Below are positions 23,062-26,000 of a stretch of DNA of 64,000 nucleotides, piece by piece. Source of the DNA: Escherichia coli (lineage in GTDB: Bacteria; Pseudomonadota; Gammaproteobacteria; Enterobacterales; Enterobacteriaceae). Position 1 is the stretch's first letter; the number at the start of each line of letters is the position of its first letter. A program made the position numbers. Where the stretch lies: the NCBI RefSeq assembly GCF_041886205.1, contig NZ_CP169029.1. One strand, given 5' to 3'.

Positions 23062-26000
23062 TAATTGTGTGGACTGGCATCCGTTGGGTGCTGGTCCGTA
23101 TTCTTTAGCACGGCTGACGGCGCATAACCAAATTTATCCGGTGCGCCGTAAAACCCCGTCCTTCAGGGCGGGGATATAAGGCGCGGTTTTCCACCTGACC
23201 AGGTGTTTGCTGTTGTTCAATGTATTGGCGGATGACGGATATTGGCGCACCTCCGCAGCTACTGGCAAAATAGCCAGGACTCCACAAAACGCCTTTGTAG
23301 TAATACCTGACTGCAATATCTGGTCGATCTCGTCGCAGTAACCTACCCGATACGCCTTTGAGGCTGTTTACCAGACTGGATATCGCCAGTTTGGGAGGAT
23401 AGTTAATTAACAAATGGACGTGATCTGGTTCGCCATCCATTTAAACCAGTTCAGCTTCAAAATCAGCACATACATTTGAAAAGTAAGTGCGTAGTTTTTC
23501 TGTCGCGTCATAGTCAAAAATCTGACGTCGGTATCTGGTGACAAAGACCAGGTGAACATGCATCAGGAAAACACAATGCTTCCCCGTCGGATATCGGTTT
23601 CTTTATTCACAGACCAAAGTATCATTTGGCCTGTGAAACGATTACAGGCATTTAAATTCCAGTTAAGACCCGGTGGTCAACAGGAGCGTGAAATGAGGCG
23701 CTTCGCAGGCGCATGTCGTTTCGTTTTCAATCGTGCTCTGGCGCTTCAGAATGAGAATCATGAGGCCGGTAATAAATACATCCCTTACGGGAAAATGGCT
23801 TCCTGGCTGGTTGAGTGGAAAAACGCCACTGAAACGCAATGGCTTAAAGATTCGCCCTCACAGCCATTGCAACAGTCACTGAAAGACCTTGAGCGGGCTT
23901 ACAAAAACTTCTTCCAGAATCGGGCTGCTTTTCCCCGATTCAAAAAGCGGGGACAGAATGATGCATTCCGCTACCCGCAGGGCGTTAAGCTCGATCAGGA
24001 AAACAGCCGTATTTTTCTGCCGAAACTGGGCTGGATGCGCTACCGGAATAGCCGTCAGGTCACGGGTGTTGTGAAAAATGTCACGGTCAGCCAGTCCTGC
24101 GGTAAGTGGTACATCAGTATTCAGACAGAAAGTGAAGTATCAACTCCGGTTCACCCTTCAGCATCAATGGTCGGGCTGGATGCTGGCGTGGCTAAACTTG
24201 CCACGCTGTCAGATGGCACAGTCTTTGAGCCTGTAAACAGTTTTCAGAAAAACCAGAAGACGCTGGCGAGACTTCAGCGACAGTTAAGCCGCAAGGTCAA
24301 ATTCAGCAACAACTGGCAGAAGCAGAAACGCAAAATACAGCGACTGCATTCCTGTATCGCAAATATCCGCAGGGACTACCTTCACAAAGTCACAACGACC
24401 GTCAGCAAAAACCACGCAATGATAGCCATTGAGGATTTGAAGGTCAGCAACATGTCAAAGTCAGCAGCGGGTACGGTCAGCCAGCCGGGGCGCAATGTCC
24501 GGGCAAAATCAGGTTTAAACCGTTCGATACTGGATCAGGGCTGGTATGAAATGCGCCGCCAGCTTGCGTACAAGCAGCTCTGGCGTGGCGGTCAGGTGCT
24601 TGCTGTTCCGCCAGCGTACATAAGCCAGCGTTGCGCGTGCTGTGGTCATACAGCGAAAGAAAATCGCCTGTCACAAAGTAAATTCAGATGCCAGGTATGT
24701 GGATATACAGCGAACGCCGATGTAAACGGCGCTCGTAACATTTTAGCGGCGGGGCACGCCGTTCTTGCCTGTGGAGGGATGGTGCAGTCAGGCCGCCCGT
24801 TGAAGCAGGAACCCACCGAAATGATTCAGGCGACAGCCTGAACGTAGCAGGGATCCTCGTCATTCAGGGCGTGGAGGATGTCAACAATGGAGCCTGCGTC
24901 CGTGGCGTAAAGATGCACAGCCGCGCTGGATGGGGGCATTTCGTCCACGCCCACAAGATGGCTATTCGCCAGTGGTACGCGACTATGACACCGGCCTACC
25001 GACACAAGGGGTGAAGGTGGAAGAGAAAAAACAGAAGTTCTGACGATAATGCCCGCTGATGAACACCCGGCGGGCATTATTCAGGCTGCTTAAACCAGTG
25101 AACCGCCAGTCAGGAAGGAAAAGATAAGGAATATCAGCAAAATGCTGCACACGATGCCGATACCAAAAAGCAAAGTATGGAAAGCCAGCGTCCCGCCGCC
25201 AAAAACCAGCGCGCCGCGAATGCCCCAGCGATTTTCCTTACGCATACCGCCAATAAATGCGCAAAGTAGCGCAGCAATGGCCAGTGCGATACCGCTTTGA
25301 TTGAGGATTTTATCGACATCTACGTCCTCTTTTTTCTCCACGGTGGTAATTTTTTCGCCTTTTATTCCGGCGAGAAGACCTCTTTTAATTTCAGCCGTTT
25401 TGTCCGCCACGATGCTTTCAAACGTTGGCGGTGGTGCGGAGAAAGGGCCGAATGAAAAGTGGATAATCCCCATCATTAAAGCGATGGCACCGAACAGCAT
25501 GCCCAATGAACTGATTTTATTTTGAGCTATGATACCCATCTGACCTCCTTGTAGCGGATGGCGAAAGCATATCAGGAAACGGGCGGACGAAATTCTTAAA
25601 AAAAACCGCTAAAGGTAGAGCGTTAGTGAAATTGCAAAGGAGCAACAATGAAAATTTCCCGCCTTGGAGAAGCGCCCGATTACCGCTTCTCGCTGGCTAA
25701 TGAGCGTACTTTTCTGGCGTGGATCCGTACCGCACTAGGATTTCTGGCGGCGGGGGTTGGGCTTGATCAACTTGCGCCAGATTTCGCCACGCCCGTCATT
25801 CGTGAACTGCTGGCGTTGTTGTTGTGTCTGTTTTCCGGCGGGTTAGCGATGTATGGCTACCTGCGCTGGTTACGCAATGAAAAAGCGATGCGTCTGAAAG
25901 AGGACCTGCCCTACACCAACAGCTTATTAATCATCAGCTTAATATTGATGATCGTGGCGGTGATCGTTATGGGACTGGTGTTGTATGCCGGATAGCCGTA

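What the first reader, a model, noticed from the sequence alone, without database searches (positions are those of the whole stretch)
23065..25089. IS element sits where K-12 has yidJ-yidK-yidL
From memory of the K-12 map, yidI is followed by yidJ (sulfatase), yidK (transporter) and yidL (AraC-type regulator) before glvG. Here glvG (stop 23064) and yidI (stop 25090) are separated only by the roughly 2-kb IS element. This is either an IS-associated deletion or an ancestral layout into which K-12 acquired yidJKL.
Basis: partly seen in the sequence, partly recalled or inferred. Interest (0 to 1): 0.35.

Follow-up and report, generated by a model that had tools for sequence, protein, structure and literature searches.

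The report
IS609 replaces deleted yidJ-yidK-yidL genes
A known small mobile element (IS609) sits in a 4-kb hole where most E. coli carry three genes of unknown role; this is an ordinary IS-linked deletion, except that two nested versions of it both end exactly at the element's own target motif.

Summary

- **What is there.** A 1,747-bp IS609 (IS200/IS605 family) lies at 23138-24884. It is flanked by the last 77 nt of yidL (23061-23137) and the last 159 nt of yidJ (24885-25043).
- **What is missing.** K-12 has 4,030 bp in its place: the rest of yidL, all of yidK and most of yidJ. That segment is present in 5,101 of 5,426 complete E. coli genomes.
- **State of the element.** Its tnpA is dead (nonsense plus frameshift). 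Its tnpB (402 aa) is intact.
- **Left end.** It follows a native yidL TTAT, the target found at all eight insertion sites read. This junction occurs in 299 genomes.
- **Right end, two forms.** Fifteen genomes, including this window, join it to yidJ just 3' of a TTAC. In 289 genomes (E. coli HS type) it joins 3' of a TTAT inside yidI, a 4,666-bp loss.
- **Intermediates.** None of the three predicted intermediate junctions occurs in any genome.

Both endpoints therefore carry the transposase's target signature. The route is unresolved: either a local re-insertion followed by recombination between copies, or a direct TnpA joining. The element and the kind of event are known, so interest is modest.

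The parts
21742..23064 (+). Left neighbour: intact 440-aa 6-phospho-alpha-glucosidase (glvA/glvG-type, GH4). It is not part of the element and marks the left border of the gap.
   Evidence: ORF. Pfam Glyco_hydro_4 plus Glyco_hydro_4C. RefSeq annotation.
23061..23137 (-). yidL remnant: the last 77 nt of the AraC-type regulator gene (K-12 3861100-3861176).
   Evidence: BLAST to K-12. tblastn matches YidL residues 276-297 at 100% identity. RefSeq pseudo-CDS 'missing N-terminus'.
23134..23137 (+). TTAT, native to yidL. It is the IS609 target and left cleavage site, and the presumed TnpB TAM, immediately 5' of the left end.
   Evidence: K-12 reads ...AAATTTAT|GTTTAAAGG at this point. All eight insertion sites read (this one plus seven others) have TTAT at this position.
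23138..24884 (+). IS609-like IS200/IS605-family element, 1,747 bp. Its active (top) strand is the window + strand.
   Evidence: It is 98-99% identical over its full length to IS609 copies at other E. coli loci, with the same ends everywhere. It is the only copy in the window.
23138..23173 (+). Left end: a 16-nt linker ending in AAAA (23150-23153, the presumed DNA guide for TTAT), then the subterminal hairpin CCCCGTCC-TTCA-GGGCGGGG (23154-23173).
   Evidence: DNA fold shows an 8-bp stem. The guide assignment is by analogy with IS608, which has GL AAAG and CL TTAC (PMC5934647).
23198..23625 (-). tnpA pseudogene (Y1/HUH transposase). It has a frameshift near the N-terminus and a Glu-to-stop change just before the HUH motif. 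The frame has no stop codon inside the IS and runs on to 23105.
   Evidence: Translations. Pfam Y1_Tnp matches profile positions 46-121 only. RefSeq notes 'frameshifted; internal stop'.
23633..24841 (+). tnpB/insQ, an intact 402-aa RNA-guided endonuclease gene starting at GTG.
   Evidence: ORF. Pfam HTH_OrfB_IS605, OrfB_IS605 and Cas12f1-like_TNB. RefSeq annotates a TnpB family protein.
24855..24884 (+). Right end: the subterminal palindrome CCTCGTCA-TTCA-GGGCGTGG (24855-24874), which has two stem mismatches in this copy, followed by the right cleavage site TCAA (24881-24884).
   Evidence: End alignment of seven copies. HS-type copies have the better stem CCACGTCC...GGGCGTGG. The fold of this copy is weak.
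24774..24904 (+). Presumed omega-RNA region (tnpB 3' end through the right end) plus about 20 nt of flank (24885-24904, CAATGGAGCCTGCGTCCGTG) that would serve as its guide. This is inferred, not shown.
   Evidence: Only weak Rfam hits, both below threshold: HgcC at 24774-24897 (E=0.24) and RAGATH-18 at 24768-24811 (E=0.018). The role is inferred from TnpB biology (PMC8612924, PMC10055086).
24885..25043 (+). yidJ remnant: the last 159 nt of the sulfatase-like gene (K-12 3857069-3856911). In K-12 the four bases just before it are TTAC.
   Evidence: BLAST and tblastn. RefSeq pseudo-CDS 'sulfatase-like, missing N-terminus'.
25090..25539 (-). yidI, intact here. The commoner HS-type allele has lost all but its first 19 nt.
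25517..25520 (+). TTAT inside yidI. In 289 other genomes the same IS right end is joined to the base that follows it (25521).

Best explanation
**What it is.** The locus is a derived deletion allele made by IS609, a single-strand 'peel-and-paste' element of the IS200/IS605 family.

**Step 1 (shown).** IS609 inserted 3' of a native TTAT in the 3' end of yidL. It inserted without a target duplication, and its active strand lies on the lagging-strand template.

**Step 2 (outcome shown, route inferred).** The DNA on the right-end side was then lost up to a point immediately 3' of a target-like tetranucleotide on the same strand.
- In this window the endpoint is a TTAC in yidJ, and 4,030 bp were lost.
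- In the commoner sister allele the endpoint is a TTAT in yidI, and 4,666 bp were lost.

**The route I commit to.** It uses only documented reactions:
1. A TnpA-dependent local re-insertion of the element a few kb downstream at that tetranucleotide.
2. Homologous recombination between the copy at yidL and the new copy. This could be an unequal sister exchange. It could also be repair of a TnpB-cut donor joint that used the downstream copy as homology.

Either way one IS is left, the original left junction is kept, and the interval is deleted.

**Present state.** The copy is non-autonomous, with a dead tnpA and an intact tnpB.

**Confidence.** About 0.97 that this is an IS609-associated deletion of an ancestral yidJKL. 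About 0.8 that the distal endpoints were chosen by TnpA target recognition. About 0.45 for this particular route.
For: **Deletion of an ancestral segment.**
- Gene remnants and exact breakpoints.
- yidJKL is present in 5,101 of 5,426 genomes, with no second copy in deletion strains.

**Normal behaviour of IS609.**
- The IS ends, the TTAT target and the TCAA right end are the same at all eight sites read.
- IS609 normally inserts cleanly. Joined flanks give continuous ORFs at two loci. Exact empty sites exist for two more, in 2,043 and 456 genomes.

**Two nested alleles.**
- The left junction is in 299 genomes.
- The right junctions are of two kinds: 15 genomes and 289 genomes.
- One endpoint follows TTAC and the other TTAT.
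- Only 0.6% of positions in the interval follow TTAT, and 1.1% follow TTAT or TTAC, so the joint chance is about 6e-5.

**No microhomology.** Both junctions keep bases that slippage would have removed.

**Strand.** The window runs away from dnaA and oriC, the + strand is G-rich, and the IS top strand is the + strand. This is the orientation expected for the family (PMC5027513).

**Recombination between copies happens.**
- IS609 copies are mosaic. The left 600 bp here equal the yedK copy, including both tnpA lesions.
- Recombination between IS copies is a measured source of deletions in E. coli (PMC5009759).
- TnpB cutting of donor joints followed by recombinational repair is documented (PMC10055086).
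Against: - None of the 5,426 genomes carries any predicted intermediate junction. These are the right end followed by the rest of yidL, yidJ-TTAC followed by the left end, and yidI-TTAT followed by the left end.
- The route needs two separate local hops plus two recombinations.
- IS609 showed no transposition at all in K-12 mutation-accumulation lines (PMC5009759).
- One endpoint is TTAC, whereas all eight insertion sites read use TTAT.
- The resident tnpA is dead, so TnpA must have acted earlier or in trans.
- Carriers of the two alleles differ by 1-2% in flanks and in the IS itself. A single origin of the shared left junction is therefore likely but not proven.
Confidence: 0.45

Rival explanations
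1. **Direct TnpA-catalysed adjacent deletion.** TnpA stays bound to the resident element on the single-stranded lagging-strand template.
1. It cleaves normally at the right end, 3' of TCAA.
2. Its left-end DNA guide pairs with a TTAT or TTAC a few kb downstream on the same strand, instead of with its own flanking TTAT.
3. The 3'-OH of the right end is joined to the DNA following that site.
4. The interval is released as a single-stranded circle and lost.

No second IS copy and no host recombination are needed.
For: - It gives exactly the observed architecture. The left junction is constant, the right junction is variable, and each distal endpoint lies immediately 3' of a target-like tetranucleotide on the top strand.
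- It needs one event per allele.
- It explains the absence of every two-copy or single-insertion intermediate.
- The chemistry is that of normal integration: the guide pairs with a target in trans, and the right-end 3'-OH attacks the phosphotyrosyl target end (PMC5934647; PMC3597680, listed).
- Both known events lie on the right-end side, as this reaction requires.
Against: - I found no report of such a reaction for any IS200/IS605 element.
- The element's own TTAT is tethered next to the guide and should out-compete a distant site.
- The 4.0-4.7 kb span is longer than a typical single-stranded gap on the lagging-strand template.
- The sequence outcome is identical to that of the re-insertion-plus-recombination route, so nothing here discriminates between them.
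Confidence: 0.35
2. **Independent origins.** The two alleles arose from two separate IS609 insertions into the same yidL TTAT, acting as a hot spot. Each was followed by its own loss of neighbouring DNA.
For: - The IS copies of the two alleles differ at about 36 of 1,747 positions.
- They carry different tnpA-inactivating mutations: E-to-stop plus a frameshift here, against the SGR*LRRD stop in HS-type copies.
- The flanks differ by 1-1.5%.
Against: - The 4.7 kb downstream of the yidL TTAT alone contains 28 further TTAT sites, so a repeat hit at the same site in the same orientation is unlikely.
- IS609 copies are visibly mosaic. Gene conversion from the yedK copy, which is present in at least one strain that carries the window-type allele, explains the differing left part.
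- A 1-2% divergence is ordinary between E. coli lineages that share an old allele.
Confidence: 0.1
3. **Deletion unrelated to the element.** The DNA was lost by replication slippage, microhomology or another illegitimate event that merely happened to start at the IS end.
For: Deletions that do not involve IS elements occur at measurable rates in E. coli (PMC5009759).
Against: - Both deletions start exactly at the last base of the IS.
- Both end exactly after TTAC or TTAT (joint chance about 6e-5).
- No microhomology is consumed at either junction. GTCAA|CAATGG keeps both CAA repeats, and GTCAA|TTTG lacks the G that slippage on TTT would have kept.
Confidence: 0.05
4. **Ancestral layout.** glvA and yidI were originally adjacent, and K-12 and its relatives later acquired yidJKL.
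For: None was found. The only point in its favour is that yidK and yidL are not strictly universal in E. coli (PMC12595684).
Against: - Truncated 3' ends of yidL and yidJ flank the IS.
- The missing DNA would begin and end inside genes.
- 94% of complete genomes, including distant lineages, carry the segment at this position.
Confidence: 0.01

Closest known systems
IS609 of E. coli (IS200/IS605 family; the K-12 copy carries insQ between ydcL and ydcO)
   Same: - It is 98-99% identical over the whole 1.75 kb.
- It has the same ends, the same divergent tnpA/tnpB layout, the TTAT target and the TCAA right end.
   Different: - At four other loci the element is a clean insertion. Here it abuts a 4-kb deletion on its right-end side.
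- tnpA in this copy carries a nonsense mutation and a frameshift.
IS608 of Helicobacter pylori (the mechanistic model of the family)
   Same: - A Y1/HUH TnpA together with TnpB.
- Subterminal hairpins rather than inverted repeats.
- Insertion 3' of a tetranucleotide without duplication, and a right end closing in TCAA.
- A 4-nt DNA guide 5' of the left hairpin. IS608 has AAAG for TTAC; here it is AAAA for TTAT, the change expected from the pairing rule (PMC5934647).
   Different: - tnpA and tnpB are divergent here, as in IS605, and co-directional in IS608.
- The target is TTAT, not TTAC.
- No adjacent deletions are described for IS608 in the papers I could search.
Adjacent (nested) deletions made by DDE-type insertion sequences such as IS1 and IS10 through intramolecular transposition (from general knowledge)
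   Same: One IS end and its junction stay fixed. The deletion starts exactly at the other IS end and reaches variable distances, giving a nested series.
   Different: - The enzyme here is a tyrosine HUH single-strand transposase, not a DDE enzyme.
- The distal endpoints are sequence-specific (TTAT or TTAC) rather than near-random.
- The route has not been demonstrated.
Deletion by homologous recombination between two directly repeated IS copies (measured for IS1 and IS5 in E. coli; PMC5009759)
   Same: One IS remains, bracketed by the outer flanks of the two original copies, and the interval is lost.
   Different: The required second copies were not seen in any of 5,426 genomes. IS609 showed no activity in K-12 mutation-accumulation lines.
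[quoted passage not shown]
   Same: - An intact tnpB next to the right end.
- TAM equal to the TnpA target (TTAT).
- A guide that would be read from the right flank.
- In HS-type strains the wild-type yidI sequence would be a cognate TAM-plus-protospacer target.
   Different: No omega-RNA or cleavage was shown here, and only sub-threshold Rfam hits were found. In this window's allele the wild-type protospacer is preceded by TTAC, not TTAT.

Membership tests
IS200/IS605 family (IS609) | Encodes a Y1 (HUH) transposase, TnpA | tested here: met
   Pfam Y1_Tnp, E=2e-25, on the surviving ORF. The HVH motif and the catalytic-region SPGYF are present. The gene is inactivated by a stop and a frameshift.
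IS200/IS605 family (IS609) | Encodes TnpB (OrfB_IS605 RuvC-like domain plus zinc-ribbon/TNB domain) | tested here: met
   Pfam OrfB_IS605 (2e-34), Cas12f1-like_TNB (1e-21) and HTH_OrfB_IS605 (4e-14). The ORF is an uninterrupted 402 aa.
IS200/IS605 family (IS609) | No terminal inverted repeats; subterminal imperfect palindromes at both ends | tested here: met
   The left hairpin at 23154-23173 has an 8-bp stem. The related right palindrome at 24855-24874 is weakened by two mismatches in this copy and is better paired in HS-type copies. No terminal inverted repeat appears in the repeat scan.
IS200/IS605 family (IS609) | Inserts 3' of a fixed tetranucleotide without target-site duplication | tested here: met
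   TTAT precedes the left end at all eight sites read. Removing the IS restores continuous ORFs or exact empty sites at four loci.
IS200/IS605 family (IS609) | Near-identity to the named element IS609 | tested here: met
   98-99% identity over the full length to copies that RefSeq labels IS609 or insQ, including the ydcL/ydcO site, which is the site occupied in K-12 derivatives.
IS200/IS605 family (IS609) | Active strand on the lagging-strand template | tested here: met
   The window starts at dnaA and runs away from oriC. The + strand has positive GC skew and carries TTAT-LE...RE. The expectation comes from PMC5027513.
IS200/IS605 family (IS609) | Transposition through a circular single-stranded intermediate | not testable with these tools
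   This requires an experiment.
TnpB/omega-RNA guided nuclease system | An omega-RNA transcribed from the tnpB 3' end and right end, with its guide taken from the flank | tested here: inconclusive
   Only sub-threshold Rfam matches at the expected place: HgcC (18.7 bits against a threshold of 50) and RAGATH-18 (28.1 against 44.9).
IS-mediated adjacent deletion (intramolecular transposition type) | One IS junction constant, with a deletion starting at the other IS end and reaching variable distal endpoints | tested here: met
   The left junction is in 299 genomes. The right end is joined to two different points 636 bp apart, in 15 and 289 genomes.
IS-mediated adjacent deletion (intramolecular transposition type) | The deletion is produced by the transposase itself from a single IS copy | not testable with these tools
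   The sequence outcome is the same as for recombination between two copies. A recA-deficient in vivo assay or an in vitro assay is needed.
Deletion by recombination between two IS copies | Existence, now or earlier, of a second directly repeated copy at the distal endpoint | tested here: not met
   The junctions yidJ-TTAC|LE and yidI-TTAT|LE, and the right end followed by the rest of yidL, are each absent from all 5,426 complete genomes. Absence today does not exclude a transient copy.

The most novel reading that the evidence does not exclude
IS200/IS605 transposases may be able to make right-end-anchored adjacent deletions directly. In this reading TnpA joins the cleaved right end of a resident element to the DNA that follows a TTAT-like site downstream on the same single strand. 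This locus would then preserve a natural nested series of two such events. A corollary follows: each such deletion allele carries a TnpB guide that matches the wild-type sequence next to a TAM, so the allele could cut, and resist replacement by, the intact locus.
Probability: 0.35. Interest if true: 0.55.

Novelty: new member of a known kind. Interest (0 to 1): 0.3.

Why it matters
**For annotation.** It settles that the missing yidJ (sulfatase-like), yidK (sodium:solute symporter family) and yidL (AraC-type) genes are a lineage-specific loss. About 5.6% of complete E. coli genomes carry it. The small 'hypothetical' pseudogenes on either side of the IS are the stumps of yidL and yidJ.

**For transposon biology.** The locus is a compact natural example in which a peel-and-paste element is tied to gene loss, with endpoints that bear the transposase's own target signature. 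If the direct route is real, it adds a rearrangement mode to a family thought to act only by precise excision and insertion. Because target and TAM coincide, it would also link such deletions to TnpB targeting of the wild-type allele.

**Otherwise.** This is an ordinary IS-associated deletion involving a known element.

Tried and rejected
- **Intermediates.** I searched all 5,426 complete E. coli genomes with three chimeric 200-nt queries for the predicted intermediate junctions. None was found.
- **Microhomology.** I looked for it at both deletion junctions. None was consumed.
- **TTAC as an alternative target.** I asked whether TTAC is used by IS609 elsewhere. A plasmid copy that seemed to match the yidJ flank is in fact preceded by TTAT.
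- **Ancestry from IS sequence.** The copies are too mosaic to build a tree. The left 600 bp here match the yedK copy, and the rest resembles other lineages.
- **Ancestry from flanks.** Flanks differ by 1-1.5% from HS-type strains and from K-12 alike, which is uninformative.
- **Omega-RNA.** The Rfam search gave only sub-threshold hits.
- **Precedent in the literature.** Searches for TnpA-made adjacent deletions, and for any description of this yidJKL deletion, found nothing specific.
- **TnpB as the direct cause.** Rejected. TnpB cuts 15-21 bp from the TAM (general knowledge), not at the TAM boundary. The resident IS also separates guide-matching DNA from any TAM.
- **One-step insertion with deletion.** Rejected. 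It would need three cleavages by a dimer that has two active sites.
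Full report
**1. The observation**

The window starts at dnaA and runs through gyrB, dgo, ibpAB, yidE, yidP, a fused glvCB PTS gene and an intact 440-aa 6-phospho-alpha-glucosidase that ends at 23064. After a gap come yidI (25090-25539, minus strand), yidH, yidG, yidF and emrD.

BLAST of the window against K-12 gives three colinear blocks. It places the breakpoints at window 23137 = K-12 3861100 and window 24885 = K-12 3857069. The gap therefore contains four things:
- the last 77 nt of yidL (23061-23137, minus strand);
- 1,747 bp of foreign DNA (23138-24884);
- the last 159 nt of yidJ (24885-25043);
- the normal 46-nt spacer before yidI.

K-12 has 4,030 bp where the foreign DNA lies. 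No other trace of yidJ, yidK or yidL is in the window.

**2. The foreign DNA**

It is IS609, a member of the IS200/IS605 family.
- It is 98-99% identical over its full length to copies at many other E. coli sites, some of which RefSeq labels IS609 or insQ.
- It encodes a 402-aa TnpB on the + strand (23633-24841; Pfam HTH_OrfB_IS605, OrfB_IS605 and Cas12f1-like_TNB).
- It encodes a divergent Y1/HUH transposase gene on the minus strand (23198-23625; Pfam Y1_Tnp).

An alignment of the ends of seven copies defines the element exactly. It begins CCGGTGCGCC, always directly after TTAT. It ends GGATGTCAA, and the flanks are unrelated after that point. A plasmid copy adds an eighth site, also TTAT.

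The left end has an 8-bp hairpin (23154-23173) preceded by AAAA. In IS608 the four bases at this position are the DNA guide AAAG, which pairs with the target TTAC. The right cleavage site of IS608 is TCAA, as it is here (PMC5934647). AAAA for TTAT is the change expected from that pairing rule. This is an inference from the IS608 model, not a test.

TTAT and TCAA are reported as common cleavage motifs in a survey of 39 TnpB-containing IS elements from six bacterial species (PMC9956272).

The element normally inserts cleanly:
- Removing it restores continuous reading frames in a DUF3251 gene and a TetR gene.
- Exact empty sites exist for the ydcL/ydcO locus in 2,043 genomes and for the yedK locus in 456 genomes.

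The active strand (TTAT-LE...RE) is the window + strand. That strand runs away from oriC and has positive GC skew, so it is the lagging-strand template. This is the orientation expected for the family (PMC5027513).

**3. State of this copy**

tnpA carries a frameshift near its start and a Glu-to-stop change just upstream of the HUH motif. tnpB is intact. The same two tnpA lesions, and an identical left 600 bp, are found in the copy next to yedK in another strain. The rest of the element resembles other lineages. IS609 copies are therefore mosaics, presumably through gene conversion. At least one carrier of this allele (CP52E) also has the yedK copy.

**4. Deletion or ancestral layout?**

It is a deletion.
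- The IS is bracketed by truncated 3' ends of two genes. RefSeq annotates both as N-terminally incomplete pseudogenes.
- The K-12 yidJKL segment is at least 80% covered in 5,101 of 5,426 complete genomes, including distant lineages at about 97% identity.
- Genomes with the IS allele match only the 200-nt flank, and only once, so they have no copy elsewhere.

**5. The unexpected part: two nested alleles**

| Junction | Genomes |
|---|---|
| Left: yidL stump + TTAT + IS left end | 299 |
| Right, window type: IS right end + yidJ stump | 15 |
| Right, HS type: IS right end + yidI position 25521 | 289 |

In E. coli HS, 2013C-3264, PE164 and others the same left junction is present, but the right end is joined to the base equivalent to window 25521. 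That base lies 19 nt inside yidI, so the loss relative to K-12 is 4,666 bp.

In this window and in K-12 the four bases before 25521 are TTAT. In K-12 the four bases before the yidJ breakpoint are TTAC. Both distal endpoints therefore lie immediately 3' of the element's target or a one-base variant of it, on the same strand as the IS top strand.

In the 4.7 kb concerned, only 0.6% of positions follow TTAT and 1.1% follow TTAT or TTAC. The joint chance is about 6e-5. Neither junction consumes microhomology.

**6. How it was made**

*Shown:*
- Insertion at the yidL TTAT.
- Loss of DNA from the right end to a target-like site, seen twice.
- A constant left junction.

*Inferred:* the route. Two routes give identical sequence.

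*Route A: a downstream re-insertion, then recombination between the two copies.*
- It starts with a local TnpA-dependent re-insertion at the downstream site.
- Homologous recombination between the two directly oriented copies follows. This could be an unequal sister exchange.
- Alternatively TnpB cuts the resealed donor joint, and resection reaches the new copy.
- Every step is documented: fork- and lagging-strand-targeted insertion (PMC5027513), deletions by recombination between IS copies (PMC5009759), and TnpB-triggered recombinational repair (PMC10055086).

*Route B: direct joining by TnpA from the single resident copy.*
- It is a direct aberrant TnpA reaction.
- The right end is cleaved as usual.
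- The left-end guide pairs with a downstream TTAT or TTAC instead of its own.
- The right-end 3'-OH is joined to the DNA after that site.
- This is the single-strand analogue of adjacent deletion by DDE elements. I found no report of it.

*Evidence bearing on both routes:*
- Against Route A: none of the three predicted intermediate junctions exists in 5,426 genomes.
- Against Route A: IS609 never moved in K-12 mutation-accumulation lines.
- Against Route B: there is no precedent, and the cis target should compete strongly.
- Both routes predict right-side events, because the fork moves toward the right end.

I rate Route A at 0.45 and Route B at 0.35. Independent insertions at one hot spot get 0.1, an IS-unrelated deletion 0.05 and the ancestral layout 0.01.

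The two alleles may be sequential, with the 15-genome form ancestral to the 289-genome form through a second 636-bp loss. They may also be parallel. Flank and IS divergence of 1-2% does not decide this.

**7. Comparison with what is known**

The element is a member of IS609 / IS200-IS605 on every sequence criterion I could test. IS-associated deletions are commonplace. What I could not find described is a nested, right-end-anchored deletion series beside a peel-and-paste element whose endpoints sit at the element's target motif.

A corollary follows from target and TAM being the same sequence. In HS-type strains the TnpB guide read from the right flank would match wild-type yidI next to a cognate TTAT. 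In this window's allele the wild-type yidJ protospacer follows TTAC and differs at one base. No omega-RNA was demonstrated, and the Rfam hits are below threshold.

**8. Verdict**

The element is known and the kind of event is known. Interest is modest (0.3), resting on the target-motif endpoints and the possibility of a direct TnpA deletion reaction.

Noticed in passing
window 22343-22834 (and 20126-21742): K-12 lacks these 492 bp, which is why its glvG is a pseudogene. Here the 6-phospho-alpha-glucosidase is an intact 440 aa. The PTS gene upstream is one 1,617-nt ORF, whereas K-12 has separate glvB and glvC.
   Followed up: partly
L003 (IMT16316) 13404-13464, compared with window 25044-25635: yidI is itself a presence/absence polymorphism. 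IMT16316 has an intact yidJ followed directly by yidH, without yidI or the roughly 115 bp upstream of it.
   Followed up: no
L003 9027-9796; also hits H187 and H190: yidL is interrupted by IS1 in several otherwise intact yidJKL loci. The regulator gene is therefore hit repeatedly by different mobile elements.
   Followed up: no
window 23105-23200: The tnpA reading frame has no stop codon inside IS609. It runs through the left-end hairpin (translated ...ALYPRPEGRGFTAH) and the TTAT into the flank, so the C-terminus differs at every insertion site. This may be why RefSeq flags every copy as 'missing C-terminus'.
   Followed up: partly
window 23138-23740, compared with L005 (A3024, yedK copy): The left ~600 bp of this IS are identical to the yedK-site copy, including both tnpA lesions, while the remainder differs. 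HS-type copies at the same yidL site carry a different stop (SGR*LRRD) that is shared with a yfeD-site copy. Copies look like gene-conversion mosaics.
   Followed up: partly
window 24855-24874: The right-end palindrome of this copy (CCTCGTCATTCAGGGCGTGG) has two substitutions that break stem pairs, relative to CCACGTCCTTCAGGGCGTGG in the HS, ydcO, TetR and DUF3251 copies. The same variant occurs in the yfeD and DUF1869 copies. It might reduce TnpA recognition or alter the omega-RNA.
   Followed up: no
window 24768-24897: Sub-threshold Rfam matches to RAGATH-18 (E=0.018) and to HgcC (E=0.24) lie over the tnpB 3' end and right end, where an omega-RNA would be expected.
   Followed up: no
L014 (LHM10-1) 23633-24841; L011 (2013C-3264) IS: Strain LHM10-1 has the same coordinates as the window, but its tnpB is annotated with an internal stop, so the window comes from a close relative and not from that record. 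The 2013C-3264 copy has a 6-bp insertion near the tnpB 3' end, giving 404 aa.
   Followed up: no
counts: The right-junction counts (15 + 289 = 304) exceed the left-junction count (299). About five genomes therefore have the HS-type right junction with an altered or interrupted left part. A further ~21 genomes lack most of yidJKL without either IS609 junction, for example B19695.
   Followed up: no
window 26344-26841 (yidF): yidF, annotated as a radical SAM protein and the kind of protein that matures sulfatases, remains next to the locus although the sulfatase-like yidJ is gone. This leaves a possibly orphaned partner gene. The functional link is from general knowledge only.
   Followed up: no
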